Virus record (IMG/VR): IMGVR_UViG_3300014202_000240
Span: 1 to 26,788 of that record
Direction: 5' to 3' (one strand)
Source: a virus
Lineage: Duplodnaviria > Caudoviricetes
DNA length: 26,788 bases
Shown here: piece by piece, positions 6,095 to 24,074 of the stretch
Layout: each line of letters begins with the position of its first letter
Position numbering within the stretch: position 1 is the stretch's first letter
Made by a program: the position numbers and the translations under genes
The notes under the pieces: model-generated
Told to the model about the DNA's origin: nothing
The model's database searches: none
Seen by the model: the letters and a program-made list of their open reading frames with translations, nothing else

Positions 6095-6105
6095 ACAGTT
6101 GTTAA
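6095..6105 (-). promoter_or_regulatory. TTAACAACTGT motif, putative late promoter
   Basis: Overlaps the TAA stop of the endonuclease gene; upstream of the fibre cluster. Confidence 0.65.
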
Positions 6106-7493
6106 TTTGAATAAATCAATTTAACTTTACCACAATCCCAAATCCTTGATAATCCATCTAGGGTAGCGTGTTGTAGTTCAGTCATACCCAAAGGAGTATT
6201 AACTACGTCTTTTCTTCTTGATTGTTTACTAAGTACTTGTTTTTTATAAGTATTATAATAGAAATAGTCTGGAGGTATTATGTAATCTAACTTCCAACCA
6301 GCTTTTATCCAATTATCCTCGTTCGTCCAACGATAATCTATAAAGGTAGAAAAAGCTCCATGTATTTTGTAAGCATATGAACATAATTTAGATAGACCAC
6401 CGACAACATTTACTCCAGATTTCATAACAAATCGACTCAAAGTTAGCTCTGAACTATCTCGATGGTGTTTAGAAATAACAATAAGACCTTGTAATTCTTC
6501 GTTATGATATAATCCATACGACTTAGGAGCAATATATGTGTCTAGTATATGGTATCTAGATAGAAATTCTCTAGCTTCTAATGACTCAACTTCTCTAACT
6601 TCACAGTTTCTAGCGTATATTCGTTCAGTATTCTTATGTAGAGCTGATTTTATAAAAGATTTAACTTGGTTTTTCTTCTTTTTCCATTCAAAATCAAAGA
6701 ATTGTAATAACTTATAGCCACGTTCTTTAGCTTTTTGACGTTTTAGATTATGATACTCACGCCCTACTCTGTCTTCTGTATGCCACATACATCCATGATA
6801 CTCAATTCCTATACCTAATTCAGGGATAAATATATCTATTTCATGAGGATGTATTATACTTCTACTATTTCTTACAACTTCAAATCCTAAACTTTCAACA
6901 AAACTACATAATTCTAATTCTTCACTAGAACCAACATAAGATAAAACATCTCCATATTTCTCTATTAAAGCAAAAGTTCGTTCAAATATAACTCCAGTTC
7001 TATCTTTCCATTTATACTTCCTATCTTTTCTAGTATATGTATCTGAAAGAAATTCTGCTCCTTTTGATCTAGCAAATTCCTTCACTTCTTCTATTGTTAA
7101 TGATGTTTTTAATTGACTTAACCTTTCTTTTTTTTCATGAGGAGACCATTGACCTCCAATAATAGAATCCCAAGTCTTTTCAAAGTATCTACCTTTAGAA
7201 TCTAACCATTTATACTTAGCTTTATTTCCAATATATTCAGTAGATAAACACTTACCTCCTTTAGACTCTGCCTTTTTGTGTAACATTTCTATTGTGGTAG
7301 TTGTTAGCTTTTGTTTTTTAACTTTAGCTCCATGCTGTTTTGACCAGCGACCACTTTTAATAGAATACCATGCAGCATACCATTGATTACCGTCTGCATC
7401 TTCCCATAAGTATTTATGGTGAGAGTTCACATAAACATCAGAAAGACATTTACCTCCTTTGGATTCTGCGTGTTTTTTCAATTCTTCTATCAT
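6102..7493 (-). CDS. Hef-like free-standing homing endonuclease (N-terminal repeats, Vsr/PD-(D/E)xK-like nuclease, GNAT-like C-terminal domain)
   Basis: Three SKGGKCLSxxY-type repeats; EIDIFIPELGIGIEYHGCMWH; IYARNCEV...LSRF...VVGGLSKL...RIWDCG. Confidence 0.75.
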   Translation of the reverse strand: MIEELKKHAESKGGKCLSDVYVNSHHKYLWEDADGNQWYAAWYSIKSGRWSKQHGAKVKKQKLTTTTIEMLHKKAESKGGKCLSTEYIGNKAKYKWLDSKGRYFEKTWDSIIGGQWSPHEKKERLSQLKTSLTIEEVKEFARSKGAEFLSDTYTRKDRKYKWKDRTGVIFERTFALIEKYGDVLSYVGSSEELELCSFVESLGFEVVRNSRSIIHPHEIDIFIPELGIGIEYHGCMWHTEDRVGREYHNLKRQKAKERGYKLLQFFDFEWKKKKNQVKSFIKSALHKNTERIYARNCEVREVESLEAREFLSRYHILDTYIAPKSYGLYHNEELQGLIVISKHHRDSSELTLSRFVMKSGVNVVGGLSKLCSYAYKIHGAFSTFIDYRWTNEDNWIKAGWKLDYIIPPDYFYYNTYKKQVLSKQSRRKDVVNTPLGMTELQHATLDGLSRIWDCGKVKLIYSN

Positions 7494-15106: not shown

Positions 15107-17115
15107 TATCCCATTGTCCTTGGTTCTAGATTTGGATTAGGTAATAAACTTGGGTCTACGCTAGGTTGATCTGGTATAGATGCTTCTGCAGGAGCTTGAG
15201 GCCCCATGTTTTGTTGTCCTAGTACCTCACCAGTATTACCTTGTTCTAGACTTGCTTGTTGAGGGCCGGGAGGCATTTCGGGATTACCTTGTTGATCCAT
15301 AGGATTTAAAGGTTGTTCGTTAATTAATTGTAGTAGGTCTGGATTCACATTTCGAAGCATATCAATATGTTCTTGAATATGATTTTGTACTTTAGATAAA
15401 AGTTCTGGATTTTGTCTAAGTTCTGGATCACTAATTACCGCTCGGTGTTCCATGATATGCATTCTATGCTGATCTAGAATATTAGCAAATACATCTTTAC
15501 CTTCAAGTAACCATTCGTTTTCACGTTTGATTAATAGTAAGTCAGCCATATCACCTTCGAACATTGAATCTAATCTACCGGTCTCCATAACCATAAAATA
15601 TTGTTGTGGATTTTTAAGTAGGTTCATCTGAGCCAATTGTTGAGCCATTTCAACACGACCAGCAATTGTTCTAGATAATGGATTACCAACATCAACGACA
15701 ACTCGTTTAATGTCTTTAATCATATCACCTTTAAATTCTTTAAGAAGTGATTTTTTATTCTTTCCAACTAAAGTAATAAGCTTAGGAGTATCAGCAAAGT
15801 CTTTAAGAATTTCAATAAGAGTTGTTCCAATATTTTCTAAGAATGTAACATATGACTTTTGGAATCCGGATTGAAACTGTAGTGACATAGACTGTACTAA
15901 AGCTAATGCGTTTCCTGAACGTAAGGATGCTTCTGGATTACCTCTTGTTACAGAGTTTACACCAACTTGAGTTTCAGCTAATTGCTCTAAAACTTTAACA
16001 AAATTAAATACTTCTGGAGCAGTAGATGTTAATTGAACTGCCTCTGGTTTAGCGTTACCTTCCATGATATTCATACCACCTTCAACTGAAGCGATATTTA
16101 AATCAGAACCTCTAGGAACAAAAATACTTTGTACCATGAAAGCGTTTTGATTTGTCATAATACCAGAGTATAAAGAGTTTAATGCTTCTTGTAAAGGGAA
16201 TACATCAAACATATCAGTATATCCATAAGGAGTTCCCATGATATTAGCAGGAGCTAATCTAAATATAGGGATCGTTCTGTATGGAAGATCGAAATCTATT
16301 AGTATAATCTCTGGAGTAATAAACTGAATATATCTACCTTCTGGTAGAGCTTCTGACCTTTTATGATAGAATTCATAAACCATAATGTCATCAGTATCAT
16401 CGTTAGAAAACATTCCAAGTTTAGTACTTGAATAATTATTCTTTGGTTGAATTTGAGCTAACTTATCTGCATATTCTGGATACTTAGCAATTAGATTATA
16501 CTTATTAATTGCTGTTCTAGTTAGAATCCATTCATGATTCCATCTTTCTTTAGTGCCATCGACAACCACATCTAAAGGACTTAGAATAGAAAATTCTAAT
16601 TCTCCTTCATGATTTGGTTCATTTGTTTCTGGATCGTAATCGTAGATTTCTCCAGCAGTTGCATTCCATCCCATTTTAATATAAGACGAACCTAAAACAA
16701 TCGCCATTTCAACAGCTTCGTTTACTGCTTCTTCTAATCCCTTTTCTCTCATATAGTAATCAAGAATACCGTTAGCTAGGTATGTTTGAGACATTGATTT
16801 AAAGTCTGAATTGACAGCTCTAGCTTCCATAATAGGTCTATTCGCTGTAATCATATTGTAGATATTTCTAGCTAAGTTTCTGAAATGGTTAACTGGTAGT
16901 TTTACAAGTTCACCCTGTTCACCAGCAAAAGTAATTTGATGATCGCTATCTAGTCCATGGTTAAAGTTACCATAGTAGAAGTGATACATATCTGTAATCT
17001 TCTTTAAATACGAGTTTGATCTCATTGTATTAAAGAATGATTCACCTTTCTGTAGTAAATTAGATGTACATTTTTTAGCCTCTTGGGCTGCAAAGTAAAC
17101 TTGACTATCCGACAT
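15106..17115 (-). CDS. Portal protein
   Basis: 669 aa, downstream of terminase; GSSYIKMGW, PYG..DVFPLQEALN, GVNSVTRG; Pro/Gln-rich tail. Confidence 0.85.
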   Translation of the reverse strand: MSDSQVYFAAQEAKKCTSNLLQKGESFFNTMRSNSYLKKITDMYHFYYGNFNHGLDSDHQITFAGEQGELVKLPVNHFRNLARNIYNMITANRPIMEARAVNSDFKSMSQTYLANGILDYYMREKGLEEAVNEAVEMAIVLGSSYIKMGWNATAGEIYDYDPETNEPNHEGELEFSILSPLDVVVDGTKERWNHEWILTRTAINKYNLIAKYPEYADKLAQIQPKNNYSSTKLGMFSNDDTDDIMVYEFYHKRSEALPEGRYIQFITPEIILIDFDLPYRTIPIFRLAPANIMGTPYGYTDMFDVFPLQEALNSLYSGIMTNQNAFMVQSIFVPRGSDLNIASVEGGMNIMEGNAKPEAVQLTSTAPEVFNFVKVLEQLAETQVGVNSVTRGNPEASLRSGNALALVQSMSLQFQSGFQKSYVTFLENIGTTLIEILKDFADTPKLITLVGKNKKSLLKEFKGDMIKDIKRVVVDVGNPLSRTIAGRVEMAQQLAQMNLLKNPQQYFMVMETGRLDSMFEGDMADLLLIKRENEWLLEGKDVFANILDQHRMHIMEHRAVISDPELRQNPELLSKVQNHIQEHIDMLRNVNPDLLQLINEQPLNPMDQQGNPEMPPGPQQASLEQGNTGEVLGQQNMGPQAPAEASIPDQPSVDPSLLPNPNLEPRTMG

Positions 17116-17864
17116 TAGTATACCTCTAAAAATCTTTTTAAGTGTCTAAGTGGAACTAAGTAAGCATCGTCAACAACTCTAGTAGAGCCTGCAAATAAAA
17201 CACCAACAACATTTCCATATTTATTAATAACCGGACTTCCAGAGTTTCCTCCGTAGCTAGTTACAGAAGCTTGCATCGAATAATAAGATTCAACACAAAT
17301 TCCTTCTATATTATAAAATTCTTTTAAAAAATCATTACTTATCCAGTTACCCTTACATGTACTTTTATCATAACCAGATATTAATTCAATAACTTGATTA
17401 CCGATATACTCACCTTTCTTCACAACTAAAGGTCTTAGATTTGGATGTCCAACTAAAACAATATCTTCACCTACATCAACTGAAGAAGCAATATCTAATC
17501 CCTTTTTACCTACAATAGGTTCTACTAAACATAAATCATGATCTTCATATTTTTGGATAATTCTTCTTGGGATTGGTCTAGGAAGACTGGATGATGAAAC
17601 ATCGACGTATCCGTCTTTAGAGATTTCACAAACATGTCTATTTGTTACAATATACACAGTTCCTGATTTAGCTTTGACATGAAATCCAGTACCGCCATTT
17701 ACTCTACCACCGTTATCTTTACTAATCATAACAACTTGATCACCAGTACTATACCGATAATAAGCATCTTTCAGATTAGGAGCAGAAGCTACAAATCCAA
17801 AGACCACAATAGTTGCAGCGACAGTTTTTACTAATGATTTCAACTTTTTAGCTATCTTGGACAT
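17115..17864 (-). CDS. Trypsin-like (S1) serine protease with N-terminal hydrophobic anchor/signal
   Basis: Catalytic triad motifs TNRHVC, HDLC, GGNSGSP; GTGF; N-terminal VAATIVVFGFVA. Confidence 0.9.
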   Translation of the reverse strand: MSKIAKKLKSLVKTVAATIVVFGFVASAPNLKDAYYRYSTGDQVVMISKDNGGRVNGGTGFHVKAKSGTVYIVTNRHVCEISKDGYVDVSSSSLPRPIPRRIIQKYEDHDLCLVEPIVGKKGLDIASSVDVGEDIVLVGHPNLRPLVVKKGEYIGNQVIELISGYDKSTCKGNWISNDFLKEFYNIEGICVESYYSMQASVTSYGGNSGSPVINKYGNVVGVLFAGSTRVVDDAYLVPLRHLKRFLEVY

Positions 17865-21133: not shown

Positions 21134-21161
21134 AATACCTATGTGTTGTTTCTATATATAA

Positions 21162-21172
21162 ACAGTTGTTAA
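21162..21172 (-). promoter_or_regulatory. TTAACAACTGT motif, putative late promoter
   Basis: Overlaps the TAA of ORF 21169-21300. Confidence 0.65.
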
Positions 21173-21300
21173 CTATTTTCTGTTTTATTTTTATGTTTAA
21201 CCTTACGATTATAATCCTTCTTACTCCTCATCGTTGTATTAGGTTTATTTTGAATAGGTTTACGTGATTTCGGTAACTTAACTACAATCTTATTACTCAT
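21169..21300 (-). CDS. 43-aa basic peptide with ArfA-like motif, not in ORF track
   Basis: SD AAGGAG; MSNKIVVKLPKSRKPIQNKPNTTMRSKKDYNRKVKHKNKTENS. Confidence 0.7.
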   Translation of the reverse strand: MSNKIVVKLPKSRKPIQNKPNTTMRSKKDYNRKVKHKNKTENS

Positions 21301-21349
21301 AAACTAACTCCTTATAATTGTTCATATATTGAATTATTTTGCTTAACTT

Positions 21350-21360
21350 TTAACAACTGT
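21350..21360 (+). promoter_or_regulatory. TTAACAACTGT motif in inverted orientation
   Basis: Exact 11-mer on the plus strand, intergenic, with no plus-strand gene downstream. Confidence 0.55.
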
Positions 21361-21415
21361 AACCAAACGCCGGTAAGCTATTACTAATAAAGTATTATAC
21401 TACTAGTAATAGAGA

Positions 21416-21444
21416 AGTATAGTATATAAATTCTAATCTGTCAA
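21416..21444 (-). promoter_or_regulatory. Near-consensus sigma-70 promoter
   Basis: TTGACA(21444-21439)-N17-TATACT(21421-21416). Confidence 0.75.
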
Positions 21445-21546
21445 TAACTAATCTAAATTAACCGTTAAAACTATCAGTACATAGCAATTGAACTAGAGTT
21501 TTCTTTCAATTGCGACTTTATTACTTACTATACATCCGTATATCTA

Positions 21547-22086
21547 TCAGTACATAAGAGCTATTCCTTTATTACTTTTCTGTATTAGCTGTTTCGTTTC
21601 ATTATTACAAGCGTATACAGGATAGATGTACTTGCTAGTATAATTCTCTATTACGAAGGTATTAGCTTCTTTAATCGTATTGAATACTCCTACTGGCTTA
21701 TACTCATAACGTTTATTTACTAAGTATACGATTACATACTTACAGTCGTAAGTTACTCTTGTTACCACTTTATATTCTAGTGGCGGTCTTGTTTCTATAT
21801 ACTCTTTATATCCTAATTCTTTAAACTTGTCTTTCCAATACTGAACATGTAGTTTACGTGTTTCTATATCTTCCATTACTTCTAAAACTTCTATTTGAAG
21901 CTTATCAAAGTCTTTAATCATCTCTTTACATTTGAATGTACCTATGTCTAATTCTTTCAGAATAAGGTCTATTGCTGTTAAGAATCTACTAGTCTGACTG
22001 ATGTATATCTTTTTACTAGAATCGTTTCTAATGGCGTATATTACGCTTTTAGGAAGGTGTTTTAATTCGTTTAATAATGACCTCAT
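21547..22086 (-). CDS. Degenerate GIY-YIG nuclease-fold protein
   Basis: VIYAI...KIYISQT...IEVLE; SD GAGG. Confidence 0.55.
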   Translation of the reverse strand: MRSLLNELKHLPKSVIYAIRNDSSKKIYISQTSRFLTAIDLILKELDIGTFKCKEMIKDFDKLQIEVLEVMEDIETRKLHVQYWKDKFKELGYKEYIETRPPLEYKVVTRVTYDCKYVIVYLVNKRYEYKPVGVFNTIKEANTFVIENYTSKYIYPVYACNNETKQLIQKSNKGIALMY

Positions 22087-22192
22087 AATAGCCTCTTTAA
22101 CGGGTAGTAATAATACCTATACTAAGATATAGGATGGTGTAAAACAACGTAATACAAGCCTAATACAGAGCTTATAGAAGGGTTATACAAGC

Positions 22193-22203
22193 ATAGTTGT
22201 TAC
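22193..22203 (-). promoter_or_regulatory. Variant late motif GTAACAACTAT
   Basis: One mismatch to consensus, ~107 nt upstream of the GIY-YIG-like gene. Confidence 0.4.
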
Positions 22204-22364
22204 AATATTAAACTTGATATTAGTAAGTGAGTGTAATTAGGTAGGGTTAATGATTTTGTATATTTGAGAGGTGGTGAAGGTGAATGTTTCTATATTTAGA
22301 ATAGTTTATAGGATGTGTAGACCATGGACACCTTTGTCAGCTTTGATTGTCCCATACCCCCCTA

Positions 22365-22472
22365 ACACACACGCATTATACCCGCACGCAGGTTTTAACG
22401 CACACGCATACGCACAGGCGCACGCACCTACGCACACACACGCATCACGGGTATCTAACGCACGTACGCACG
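22365..22472. repeat. CGCA/CA alternating purine-pyrimidine low-complexity tract
   Basis: Twelve CGCA copies in ~100 nt within an AT-rich genome. Confidence 0.85.
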
Positions 22473-22547
22473 TTTCAACTATCTTTAAAACATCGCTTGA
22501 CCAACTATCAGGCACTTAGCTCTAAGCTATTGATATCTAATACGGTG

Positions 22548-22594
22548 GTGTCATAACGATACTGGATAGTGTCACATTGACTATACTGGTGTCA
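22548..22594 (+). repeat. Three GTGTCA direct repeats at 21/20-bp spacing
   Basis: Copies start at 22548, 22569, 22589. Confidence 0.7.
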
Positions 22595-22658
22595 TACTGC
22601 ACCTACGAGGTTTCAATGGGTTATACGATGTACTACGTGATTACGAGGGGTTATAGAG

Positions 22659-23096
22659 TTGGCATGGGCTATGCAATACCACTAAACAGAACGGTTGACG
22701 GTAACGTGTTGACTCAACGCACTTGATGCAATGAGTTGGCACGCTACTTGCTACAACCAAAACAGTGATTGACCACGATACAATGTAATTTTTACAACGT
22801 ATCTTGTGACATTACTGAACTGCTGGTAACATCAGTATGACGGTATCTGATAAGCTTAAATGATACGTAGCGGTCGTTATACGACGTGCTTAATATCTAG
22901 TAGCAATCGTGATTATGTCTGATAAGTTGGCACGCTATTTGAAATGTAAAAAACGAGATTCAACCGACAAGTAAAAACGAGTTGGCATGAATCTTGAAAC
23001 AAAGAAAAGCAGTAATGCTGACAAGCGAAAGTGAGTTGGCACGAATCTTGAAAAGGAATTTAAGAGATAAGCAATCAAGTTGGCATAGGAATTGCT
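22659..23096 (+). promoter_or_regulatory. Array of six sigma-54 (-24/-12) promoter-like sites
   Basis: TTGGCAY sites with GG-N10-G[CA] at 22659, 22736, 22927, 22982, 23036, 23080; the 22736 site TTGGCACGCTACTTGCT is perfect consensus. Confidence 0.8.
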
Positions 23097-23105
23097 AACA
23101 AGATT

Positions 23106-23486
23106 GTAGGTGAAATCGAACACCTTACCAAAAAATACGATAGACATTTATTAAAACTAACAACGTGTCCGATCGAGCCGTAAACTCGATAAGCGTTGCC
23201 CTAAGTCTAAGAAGTTCTCTCGGGGTCGGAGTATTGAGAAGAAGTGAGCACCAAATAGGTGTGAGCTGTATAAGAGCGTAGGAATCATATTAAGCAACTC
23301 CACGCACGTCCACTTATACAGTATTAAGCGAGTTACGTGTAGCCGCCTCTTGTAGTATTACGCTACAGTTGTGCCATGACCGCCTGACAAAAAATCAGGG
23401 ATAACCGCCGAACTCAGTATCGCTAAGGCGTGAACCATTAGGTTAGACGAACAGTCTTTAATTCCGAGATGATCGGGTACTGAGTA
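23106..23486 (+). ncRNA. Putative large structured RNA / early leader
   Basis: Raised GC, no convincing ORF, more than ten consecutive helices including a five-way junction. Confidence 0.6.
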
Positions 23487-23571
23487 GAACGAAACAGACA
23501 TTTAGCCCTAGGCGTAATGCGTCTAAGGGCTATCTGTTTGTCGATAGGTATGTGCCTATCCTGACGAGTTC
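23487..23571 (+). ncRNA. Type II hammerhead ribozyme, predicted cleavage after GUC at 23542
   Basis: Stem II GAAC/GTTC; GAAA 23491-94; stem III CAGACA/TGTTTG; UC 23541-42; stem I GATAGG/CCTATC; CTGACGA 23561-67. Confidence 0.9.
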
Positions 23572-23583
23572 AATGAGGTTTAT

Positions 23584-23796
23584 ATGAAATATAGAGATGT
23601 ATCTAAACCTAAAGTAAAAAAGCCTAAGTTAAAACAAATACATAGAGTAGTAATAGAGTCTGATGACATTGAGGTCATTGAAATGATTCTATCGAATTTA
23701 AAGTATATGTACGTGGATTATGAGGCAGATGAACTTGATTTAAAGATAAACAAAATTGTCGATAATCTTAATATAAAAACAATACAGAGGATATAA
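23584..23796 (+). CDS. First early hypothetical protein
   Basis: SD GAGG 23575-78. Confidence 0.75.
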   Translation: MKYRDVSKPKVKKPKLKQIHRVVIESDDIEVIEMILSNLKYMYVDYEADELDLKINKIVDNLNIKTIQRI

Positions 23797-23798
23797 TC

Positions 23799-24074
23799 AT
23801 GAATAAAATACCACGATTCCTACGATCTAAGCTTAATGCTGAGAGTAAAGCTAAACGAGCGTCTAAACGTGATACAATAACTTCTAGTTATATTGTGTCG
23901 GGTAACACTAAGGATGAGTTTGCTAAAGAGAATAAGGTTAAGAAGCACCATGGTAAGTGGAAAGAAGTTAGCCCTCTGCCTTTGAATAGGTCTGCGGTTG
24001 CTAGACATGCGTATCTTAAACGTAAGGCTAATGCTCCGAGTAAGGTTACTTGGACGTGTCCTGTGAGGTATTAA
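23799..24074 (+). CDS. Basic hypothetical protein
   Basis: SD GAGGA; K/R-rich. Confidence 0.65.
   Translation: MNKIPRFLRSKLNAESKAKRASKRDTITSSYIVSGNTKDEFAKENKVKKHHGKWKEVSPLPLNRSAVARHAYLKRKANAPSKVTWTCPVRY

What the first reader, a model, noticed from the sequence alone, without database searches (positions are those of the whole stretch)
23487..23571. Type II hammerhead ribozyme abutting the first early gene's RBS
All core nucleotides are present in order: GAAC|GAAA|CAGACA...TGTTTG|TC|GATAGG-TATGTG-CCTATC|CTGACGA|GTTC. Stem III extends as TAGCCCT/AGGGCTA plus AGGCG/CGTCT. The SD GAGG starts at 23575, just after stem II. Established: 5'-OH ends and 5' hairpins hinder 5'-end-dependent RNase E attack, so cleavage could stabilise the mRNA and give one 5' end whichever upstream promoter fired (a natural insulator). 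Speculative: loop I UAUGUG can wobble-pair with UAUAUG spanning the start codon (23581-86).
Basis: partly seen in the sequence, partly recalled or inferred. Interest (0 to 1): 0.85.

Follow-up and report, generated by a model that had tools for sequence, protein, structure and literature searches.

The report
Phage hammerhead releasing structured leader RNA
A textbook self-cutting hammerhead RNA motif sits just ahead of the first early gene of a lake phage; related phages fill the same slots with other hammerheads or with twister ribozymes, so the cut itself is likely what matters, probably freeing both a uniform mRNA start and an undescribed folded non-coding RNA.

Summary
The hammerhead is real. 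Core, GUC site and three stems lie at 23487-23571 in type II order, and 0 of 300 shuffles give one as good. Rfam's hammerhead models miss it. The RBS follows 3 nt after stem II.

It is a family trait. All 13 related phage groups with this gene layout carry ribozymes at the head of the early region, as type II or III hammerheads or twisters. In 9 of 13, two ribozymes bracket a 262-474-nt ORF-less structured RNA. The window's own ~435-nt leader is structured: 1 of 19 listed strain substitutions breaks a predicted pair. It shares a 5' domain with those RNAs only weakly (best hit, E 0.06-0.16). Six sigma-54-type promoter motifs lie upstream.

Best reading: one co-transcriptional cut gives a uniform, hairpin-capped 5'-OH mRNA and releases the leader as a non-coding RNA. 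The start-codon pseudoknot is chance-level; a U·A loop contact fits better. The 'first gene' is absent in 6 of 6 strains covering the join. Phage hammerheads ahead of early genes are published, and this scan noted similar layouts on other DNA. Cleavage is untested.

The parts
22548..22603 (.). Three imperfect GTGTCA-N3-TGACAC palindromes about 21 bp apart; candidate activator (enhancer) sites for the sigma-54-type promoters
   Evidence: 3 of the window's 12 matches lie here; 11-fold enriched within 200 bp upstream of sigma-54 motifs in relatives (19 in 6,176 bp vs 80 in 289,388 bp; 7 of 16 loci). Motif chosen by eye from the window and L002. Function inferred.
22659..23096 (+). Six sigma-54-type -24/-12 promoter motifs starting at 22659, 22736, 22927, 22982, 23036 and 23080, all facing the early genes
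   Evidence: 6 found vs mean 0.24 (max 2) in 200 shuffles; consensus tGGcacg / tTGCt in PMC4641369 (passage); one repeat unit is missing in run X1. Promoter activity inferred.
23107..23542 (+). ORF-less structured leader, the predicted 5' cleavage product; its 5' end is estimated from the last promoter motif
   Evidence: longest ATG-ORF 8 aa, z -4.4; z -3.41, 0 of 100 shuffles; 1 of 19 listed strain substitutions breaks a dominant predicted pair vs 40% expected, p = 7e-4; no Rfam match, no tRNA
23161..23198 (+). Leader hairpin with a compensatory C-G to G-C change (23164/23195) in related strains
   Evidence: pair probability 0.96
23228..23330 (+). Leader domain (A-rich stretch, AAAUA-loop hairpin 23248-23262, long irregular stem 23266-23321) resembling the 5' domain of the ribozyme-flanked RNAs of relatives
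   Evidence: best hit of the whole window with two models built without it: 13.7 bits, E 0.059 and 15.2 bits, E 0.16; not found by the model of the twister-flanked group. Suggestive, not significant.
23412..23485 (+). Predicted multi-way junction whose 9-bp closing helix ends one nucleotide before stem II
   Evidence: folding prediction only
23486..23486 (+). A just 5' of stem II, predicted partner of loop-I U23549 (reverse-Hoogsteen contact)
   Evidence: A in 10 of 10 window-like type II copies; motif described in PMC2632901 (passages); contact inferred
23487..23571 (+). Type II hammerhead ribozyme with canonical core; predicted cleavage after C23542
   Evidence: letter-identical in runs X1, X3 and X7
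23543..23560 (+). Stem I hairpin; would be the fully paired 5'-OH end of the processed mRNA
   Evidence: pair probabilities 0.95-1.0 for the six Watson-Crick pairs in precursor and product
23574..23586 (+). Shine-Dalgarno UGAGGU and start codon, 42 nt after the cut; outside all hammerhead stems
23584..23796 (+). 70-aa ORF of no known family; a strain-specific insertion behind the RBS
   Evidence: skipped in 4 of 4 runs and 2 of 2 covering runs; no Pfam or PHROG hit
23799..24074 (+). 91-aa basic ORF; the gene that directly follows the ribozyme and RBS in the related strains
   Evidence: 2 database proteins only, itself and one at 86%; no detectable likeness to the relatives' conserved early gene

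Best explanation
This is a canonical type II hammerhead that likely cuts the phage's first early transcript once, after C23542, while it is being made, and the cut is predicted to yield two products: a uniform mRNA that starts with a 5'-OH hairpin 42 nt before the start codon, and a folded ~435-nt leader that is probably a working non-coding RNA. Shown: the motif, its place, the upstream sigma-54-type motifs, structure-preserving strain variation in the leader, and ribozymes of interchangeable classes in the same slots across the phage family. Inferred, in order: (1) host sigma-54 RNA polymerase starts at one of six sites; (2) the leader folds on itself and the three stems close as soon as 23571 is made; (3) U23549 docks on A23486 and speeds the cut; (4) the products part because only the 4-bp stem II joins them; (5) the 5'-OH and terminal hairpin slow 5'-end-dependent decay of the mRNA; (6) the leader persists as an RNA of its own. 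It would work like the RNase III sites that chop the T7 early transcript (recalled analogy), without needing a host enzyme.
For: Motif and controls. Family: 53 descriptor hits scoring >=35 in 144 loci (reversed-sequence null, maximum 31), all on the strand facing away from the terminase; the 47 with a terminase in the locus lie 3.4-7.3 kb upstream of it; 28 distinct hammerheads besides the window's. Of 34 terminase groups with >=5 kb upstream, 10 have hammerheads, all among the 16 at >=53% identity. Three more of the 16 have twisters in the same slots (RF03160 at 57.3 and 37.5 bits in L014), and the last three lack a divergent early region in the DNA fetched. Two ribozymes bracket an ORF-less 262-474-nt stretch in 9 of those 13 groups; its 5' domain covaries (11 and 9 of 20 pairs with double changes) and links hammerhead- and twister-flanked versions (L014, E 0.0016). 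Eight other hammerheads sit at plain gene junctions. Precedent: PMC3088659 reports 14 of 18 consensus hammerheads active, and a halovirus hammerhead 13 nt before an early start codon with the transcript end mapped within 3 nt of its cut.
Against: No cleavage or expression data. In full-length precursors the predicted probability of stem II is only 0.05-0.49, so the model relies on co-transcriptional folding. The window's leader is tied to the relatives' RNA only weakly (E 0.059 and 0.16; no hit with model R2), and model R3 finds nothing under E 0.5 in the matching stretches of L018, L027, L029, L030, L038, L049, L059 or L060, so these may be unrelated RNAs. Covariation counts rest on 3 sequences each, with structures taken from those sequences. 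The strain data come from close relatives (0 of 97 vs 12 of 278 differences, p = 0.04) and from partly truncated tables. No ribozyme was found in 18 of 18 more distant groups. The host is unknown.
Confidence: 0.6

Rival explanations
1. Insulator only: the cut standardises and stabilises the mRNA 5' end, and the leader is a by-product whose folding merely keeps it from disturbing the ribozyme.
For: Eight hammerheads in relatives sit at gene junctions with no long non-coding stretch before them; six upstream promoter motifs; RiboJ does this job in engineered constructs (PMC8942793, passages); a 5'-OH is said to slow end-dependent decay (10.1101/2020.07.22.216051, passage).
Against: In 9 of 13 groups a second ribozyme sits 12-114 nt after a stop codon in most loci with no RBS behind it, which only makes sense if the stretch between the two is to be cut out. 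Helices 300-380 nt upstream of the ribozyme keep their pairing across strains, more than a spacer needs.
Confidence: 0.2
2. Regulated switch: the leader structure, a long-range anti-RBS strand or the loop-I/start-codon pairing gates cleavage or translation, so the element acts as an allosteric ribozyme.
For: The multi-way junction ends 1 nt before stem II; in folds ending at 23590 the SD pairs with 23145-23149 at p about 0.9; in 5 of 9 type III hammerheads of relatives the SD overlaps stem III by 3-4 nt; in one relative (L079, cut at 1985) loop I can also pair 5 of 5 bases across the AUG.
Against: The anti-RBS pairing drops to about 0.03 when the fold is extended to 23640, and related strains delete base 23142 of that strand. 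The start-codon duplex is -0.4 kcal/mol and is matched by 38 of 157 ATG windows and 9.6% of random windows. The same loop sequences occur where no start codon follows. In the window the SD lies outside all stems. Swapping among ribozyme classes argues against a shape-specific switch.
Confidence: 0.12
3. Timer for shut-off: the cut speeds decay of the early mRNA, as glmS cleavage does, and so limits early expression.
For: glmS cleavage is followed by degradation (PMC6765202, passage); the responsible 5' exonuclease, RNase J, occurs in some Gram-negative lineages (recalled).
Against: The 3' product begins with a fully paired hairpin, which is recalled to hinder 5'-end attack; a phage with six promoter motifs seems built for high early output (inference).
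Confidence: 0.05
4. Inactive relic or selfish RNA element with no benefit to the phage.
For: 4 of 18 consensus hammerheads were inactive in PMC3088659; tandem ribozymes mark retrozymes in eukaryotes (PMC7761336, passages).
Against: Perfect core; identical in three strains whose next gene differs at about 4% of sites; fixed position in 13 of 13 groups; the two flanking ribozymes are often of different types, unlike retrozyme repeats.
Confidence: 0.03

Closest known systems
Type II hammerhead ribozymes of bacteria and phages (Perreault et al. 2011, PMC3088659; Rfam RF02276)
   Same: Core, GUC site, stems I and III closed and stem II open; phage setting; clusters that flank genes and were proposed to cut long phage transcripts into shorter mRNAs.
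   Different: No 4-bp-or-longer pseudoknot between loop I and the bases right after stem II; it has the loop-loop signature known from type I/III hammerheads instead. Stem III is long (48 nt). It does not score against RF02276. In relatives, pairs flank a non-coding RNA rather than a gene.
HHphage of haloviruses HF1/HF2 (PMC3088659, Discussion)
   Same: Hammerhead 13 nt before the start codon of the first gene of an early polycistronic transcript (12 nt here); transcript 5' end mapped near the cut.
   Different: That one is a core variant in an archaeal virus ahead of a helicase. No released structured leader or ribozyme swapping is mentioned in the passage read.
Loop-loop motif of viroid and satellite hammerheads (Dufour et al., PMC2632901)
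   Same: Loop 1 UN3YN (UAUGUG); a purine:A opposition flanking stem II (A23572:A23486).
   Different: There loop 2 is a closed hairpin loop; here the two A's come from separate ends of an open stem II.
RiboJ insulator (engineered; PMC8942793, passages)
   Same: Hammerhead plus hairpin ahead of an RBS gives the same mRNA from any promoter.
   Different: Natural, type II, hairpin supplied by stem I, and the removed 5' part is long and conserved in structure.
T7 early transcript processing by RNase III (recalled, not checked in a paper)
   Same: Tandem host promoters at the head of the early region; a long transcript cut between genes.
   Different: Self-cleavage leaves 5'-OH and 2',3'-cyclic phosphate ends with no host nuclease; the promoters are of sigma-54 type.
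Retrozymes and other ribozyme-flanked circular RNAs (PMC7761336, passages)
   Same: Two ribozymes a few hundred nucleotides apart release a non-coding unit with ligatable ends (in relatives).
   Different: Flanking ribozymes are not repeats and often differ in class; fixed single locus; the window has only the downstream one.

Membership tests
Hammerhead ribozyme, type II topology | CUGANGA core between stems I and II | tested here: met
   CUGACGA 23561-67
Hammerhead ribozyme, type II topology | GAAA between stems II and III, with A15.1-U16.1 and G10.1-C11.1 pairs | tested here: met
   GAAA 23491-94; A23494-U23541; G23568-C23490
Hammerhead ribozyme, type II topology | NUH cleavage triplet | tested here: met
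   GUC 23540-42
Hammerhead ribozyme, type II topology | Three helices, stems I and III closed, stem II open | tested here: met
   6-7, 4 and 7 bp; constrained fold equals free MFE in local context
Hammerhead ribozyme, type II topology | Site-specific self-cleavage | not testable with these tools
   needs an in vitro or in vivo assay; no RNA run was listed
Rfam RF02276 (pseudoknotted type II model) | Score at or above the gathering threshold (37 bits) | tested here: not met
   no RF02276 match at any E<=10; not filed under this Rfam entry. Two relatives' copies with bulged stem I do pass.
Rfam RF02276 (pseudoknotted type II model) | Loop I pairs with 4 or more bases directly 3' of stem II | tested here: not met
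   3 bp including one G-U, +1.1 kcal/mol
UNmYN / R:A loop-loop contact (Dufour et al.) | 5' U and penultimate pyrimidine in loop 1; R and A flanking stem II | tested here: met
   window matches; in 10 window-like type II copies U 10 of 10, A/A 10 of 10, penultimate pyrimidine 7 of 10
UNmYN / R:A loop-loop contact (Dufour et al.) | Physical reverse-Hoogsteen U-A pair that raises the rate | not testable with these tools
   needs mutagenesis or a structure
Sigma-54 promoter | -24 GG and -12 element at fixed spacing | tested here: met
   6 motifs, 3 ending TGC and 3 TGA at -12; chance 0.24
Sigma-54 promoter | Dependence on RpoN and an enhancer-binding activator | not testable with these tools
   no activator among 32 window proteins scanned; the contig is about a third of the 75-95-kb length of the longest relatives
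Retrozyme | Tandem repeated copies of one ribozyme flanking a mobile unit | tested here: not met
   one ribozyme in the window; mixed types in relatives
Known ncRNA families (for the leader) | Match to an Rfam family or a tRNA/tmRNA | tested here: not met
   best stray match is 6A RNA at 17.8 bits (gathering 41.2, E 1.3) on L006

The most novel reading that the evidence does not exclude
This phage family makes an undescribed class of structured non-coding RNA as one of its first products, from activator-dependent sigma-54 promoters, and matures it with whichever self-cleaving ribozyme is at hand (hammerhead II, hammerhead III, core-insertion hammerhead or twister). The RNA acts in host takeover, for example as a decoy for an RNA-binding protein. 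In relatives with two ribozymes its 5'-OH and cyclic-phosphate ends could be joined into a circle by a host RtcB-type ligase (about 0.15 for that last step).
Probability: 0.4. Interest if true: 0.75.

Novelty: new variant of a known kind. Interest (0 to 1): 0.55.

Why it matters
What self-cleaving ribozymes do in phages is called open in the reviews read (PMC6765202, PMC6155905; passages). One more hammerhead before an RBS adds little. The useful part is the natural comparison series: matching slots in one phage family hold several hammerhead forms or a twister, which says that cutting at that place, not a particular fold, is under selection. It also names two products that can each be tested in a laboratory strain. 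If the released RNA is functional, ribozymes become markers for finding unknown phage non-coding RNAs. The sigma-54-type promoter array with candidate enhancer sites would be an unusual way to start a lytic programme.

Tried and rejected
Rfam hammerhead models: no useful hit on the window. Exact-pattern scan for this hammerhead in viral contigs: 0. No RNA holder listed, so expression was not examined. Terminase alignment against GTDB genomes: no relative. Cluster names gave no host. The only GenBank phage matching terminase, capsid and portal alike is a Silvanigrella aquatica phage record at 30-34% identity; it has no hammerhead and a single sigma-54-like motif, so the host stays unassigned. 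Homology of ORF 23799-24074 to the relatives' conserved early gene: seen by eye, not confirmed. A second ribozyme at the 5' end of the window's leader: none by hammerhead descriptor, twister descriptor or Rfam. My twister descriptor alone does not separate from its null (null reaches 15); the twister calls rest on Rfam for L014 and on near-identity of motif and position for L004, L015 and L032. Model R2 (twister-flanked RNA) finds neither the window nor the L006 group. Alternative type III fold using the GAAA over the start codon: stem III half broken, and that GAAA is absent in strains lacking the inserted gene. Start-codon pseudoknot and long-range anti-RBS pairing: rejected as main mechanisms. 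Leader as tRNA or tmRNA: no. The conserved-gene alignment could not be used to fetch more loci.

Full report
Setting. The window is a 26.8-kb piece of a tailed-phage genome: terminase, portal, capsid and virion genes run leftward on the minus strand, and small unknown genes run rightward from 23584. It is the whole held assembly. The terminase has 1,803 database relatives at E<=1e-50, several on 75-95-kb contigs. Runs holding part of the region are labelled lake water or plain metagenome (8 of 9 laid). The host is not known.

The observation. A three-topology descriptor finds one hammerhead in the window; 300 dinucleotide shuffles gave 10 loose and 0 equally long matches. The stretch folds at z -3.65. 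The hammerhead fold is the free MFE of 23480-23590, and all three stems are in the MFE of 23380-23575, the state just after stem II is transcribed. In long precursors stem II competes with other pairings (probability 0.05-0.49). Rfam does not recognise it, but those models found only 2 hammerheads at gathering score in 16 relative loci in which my descriptor finds more than 20.

Close strains. In runs X1, X3 and X7 the hammerhead and RBS are letter-identical, since all differences on those contigs are itemised elsewhere; in X2 none is listed there, but 3 of its 17 differences are not itemised. The next shared gene differs at 11-12 of 278 sites (0 of 97 vs 12 of 278, p = 0.04). All 4 runs join 23583 to 23799, and X4 and X5 continue from 23588 into the same gene; X6 and X8 do not cover the join.

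Upstream. Six sigma-54-type motifs face the early genes at 22659-23096, against 0.24 expected; the consensus agrees with PMC4641369 (passage). A sigma-70 scan gave 11 sites vs 13.2 by chance. Three palindromes 21 bp apart precede them. The same palindrome is 11-fold enriched just upstream of such motifs in relatives, in 7 of 16 loci. From the last motif, transcription would start near 23107 (offset recalled). The 436 nt up to the cut hold no ORF over 8 aa and fold at z -4.4. Of 19 substitutions listed for this leader (the second table was truncated), 1 breaks a dominant predicted pair against 40% expected, and one pair changes on both sides.

The family. A 52-sequence terminase alignment fetched 61 viral and 79 metagenome loci, with many duplicates. 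A relaxed descriptor over 144 loci gave 53 hits scoring 35 or more, against a maximum of 31 on reversed sequence; all face away from the terminase, and the 47 with a terminase in the locus lie 3.4-7.3 kb upstream of it. They collapse to 28 distinct hammerheads plus the window's. I counted only the 34 terminase groups with at least 5 kb upstream; L023 and L048 are shorter and also carry one. Ten groups have hammerheads, all among the 16 at 53% identity or more; 0 of 18 more distant groups do. Reading the hammerhead-free close relatives showed twisters in the same slots: Rfam twister-P1 at 57.3 and 37.5 bits in L014, below its gathering score of 67.2 but at E 3e-12 and 1e-6, and the same motif in L004, L015 and L032. 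The remaining three close groups have no divergent early region in the DNA fetched. Thus 13 of 13 groups with the window's layout have a self-cleaving motif there.

Two uses are visible. In 9 of the 13 groups two ribozymes bracket 262-474 nt with no SD-led ORF (hammerhead II-III in L006, L010, L018, L079; II-II with an extra core U in the L027 group and L060; twister-twister in L004 and L014; twister-III in L015). In the other four, as in the window, only the downstream one was found. Eight further hammerheads sit at plain gene junctions. Where the script assigned a start codon (20 of 29 hammerheads) it lay 41-65 nt after the cut in 18 and 94 nt in 2.

The bracketed RNA. In L006, L010 and L079 its 5' domain keeps all 20 proposed pairs, 11 with double changes; in L004, L014 and L032, 9 of 20. 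Both counts rest on three sequences and on structures drawn from them. Model R1 (first group) finds L048 at 30.2 bits, L014 at E 0.0016 and L015 at E 0.065, and its best hit in the whole window is 23228-23330 at E 0.059. Model R3, also built without the window, again ranks that spot first at E 0.16 and finds L004 and L032. Model R2 finds neither the window nor the first group, and R3 gives nothing under E 0.5 in the matching stretches of eight other loci. A C-G-closed hairpin with an A(A/C)AUA loop occurs in 7 of 16 such stretches and in the window's leader, against 15 occurrences in 529 kb overall; the motif was defined after seeing the sequences. I read the link between the window's leader and this RNA as likely but unproven. 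No tRNA or Rfam family matches it.

Tertiary contact. PMC3088659 places the type II pseudoknot directly after stem II, where only 3 bp form here. Real pseudoknots of 4-6 bp at that place do occur in other family members (L027, L029, L030, L038, L060). The window's subclass instead has a U opening loop I and A's on both sides of a 4-bp stem II in 10 of 10 copies, which is the loop 1 UNmYN and R:A pattern of PMC2632901 (passages). I infer a U23549-A23486 reverse-Hoogsteen contact.

Mechanism. Most likely the ribozyme cuts constitutively during transcription. Only the 4-bp stem II holds the two products, so they should part. The 3' product starts with the fully paired stem I and a 5'-OH, which a passage of 10.1101/2020.07.22.216051 says slows end-dependent decay; this depends on the unknown host's nucleases. 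The 5' product is the leader, ending in a cyclic phosphate. That different ribozyme classes hold the same slots argues that the cut, not the fold, is selected. I give 0.6 to this two-product model, 0.2 to insulator only, 0.12 to a regulated switch, 0.05 to a decay timer and 0.03 to a relic. I put the chance that the motif cleaves at about 0.85; PMC3088659 found 14 of 18 consensus candidates active.

What is known. Type II hammerheads, clusters flanking prophage genes and processing of long phage transcripts are in PMC3088659 (read: first two of eight parts, the core-variation section, first part of the Discussion, and passages), as is a halovirus hammerhead 13 nt before an early start codon. 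Type II hammerheads cleave in Desulfovibrio cells (PMC8782182, passages). Reviews call the function of phage ribozymes open (PMC6765202, PMC6155905; passages). I also saw passages of PMC7761336, PMC5737381, PMC8942793 and a preprint that proved irrelevant. Searches listed no title or abstract on ribozyme-excised non-coding RNAs in phage early regions or on class swapping in matching slots, and search 60 none on sigma-54 arrays driving phage early genes; only listings were seen, the library lacks most subscription papers, and no supplements were read. Earlier notes of this scan describe hammerheads at phage RBSs and two cases of released non-coding RNA on other DNA; none matches this sequence. 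My non-coding-RNA reading was noted before those look-ups.

Verdict. The hammerhead alone is a new member of a known kind. The system around it, interchangeable ribozymes at fixed slots releasing an unmatched structured RNA behind sigma-54-type promoters, is a new variant. Interest 0.55.

Noticed in passing
window 22659-23096; L003, L004, L015, L018, L027, L029, L030, L048, L079, L130 and others: Arrays of sigma-54-type promoter motifs at the head of the early region across the family, including groups without ribozymes; in L003, L004, L014, L015 and L096 some face the other way.
   Followed up: partly
window 22548-22603; L018 2930-2975, L048 1094-1211, L049 4272-4335, L059 4654-4694, L079 4577-4688: Palindromes spaced about two helical turns apart just upstream of the sigma-54 motifs; candidate binding sites of an enhancer-binding activator.
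   Followed up: partly
L004 6468 and 6177, L014 2630 and 2331, L015 5665, L032 2658 (minus strand): Twister-P1 ribozymes below Rfam's gathering score, with a covarying pseudoknot in the second L004 copy.
   Followed up: yes
L027, L030, L038, L060 (both copies); L049 3865; L059 4230: Hammerheads with one extra U between the CUGANGA core and stem II: 10 of the 29 distinct copies.
   Followed up: partly
L006 6272, L010 1355, L015 5191, L049 3865, L059 4230: Type III hammerheads whose stem III takes in 3-4 nt of the next gene's Shine-Dalgarno, so that cleavage could free it.
   Followed up: partly
L006 6625-6897 and homologues in L004, L010, L014, L015, L018, L032, L048, L049, L059, L079: A fast-evolving basic protein of about 90 aa is the conserved early gene, and usually lies just before the non-coding RNA; a candidate partner of that RNA.
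   Followed up: partly
L006, L010, L015, L079, in the 3' part of the bracketed RNA: A shared hairpin with a symmetric UGA/AAG (UAA in L079) internal loop and a GGGA-type cap; not seen in the window's leader.
   Followed up: no
L049 3215-3516, L059 3581-3881: A different, strongly folded 300-nt non-coding RNA (z -7.2 and -5.2) with no Rfam match and no upstream ribozyme found at its 5' end.
   Followed up: partly
window 22360-22480: Low-complexity CACGCA repeat tract between the divergent gene blocks; its length varies between strains. Possibly near a genome end or packaging site.
   Followed up: no
window 21147-22295: Four exact copies of TGTTTCTATAT; the motif also occurs upstream of late genes in L002. 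Possibly a late promoter element on the minus strand.
   Followed up: no
window 6102-7493 and 17115-17864 (minus strand): A homing-endonuclease-like gene right after the major capsid gene, and a trypsin-like protease between terminase and portal.
   Followed up: no
L006 6495-6532: The A-rich stretch opening the bracketed RNA resembles the 3' end of Rfam 6A RNA at 17.8 bits, E 1.3; probably chance.
   Followed up: no
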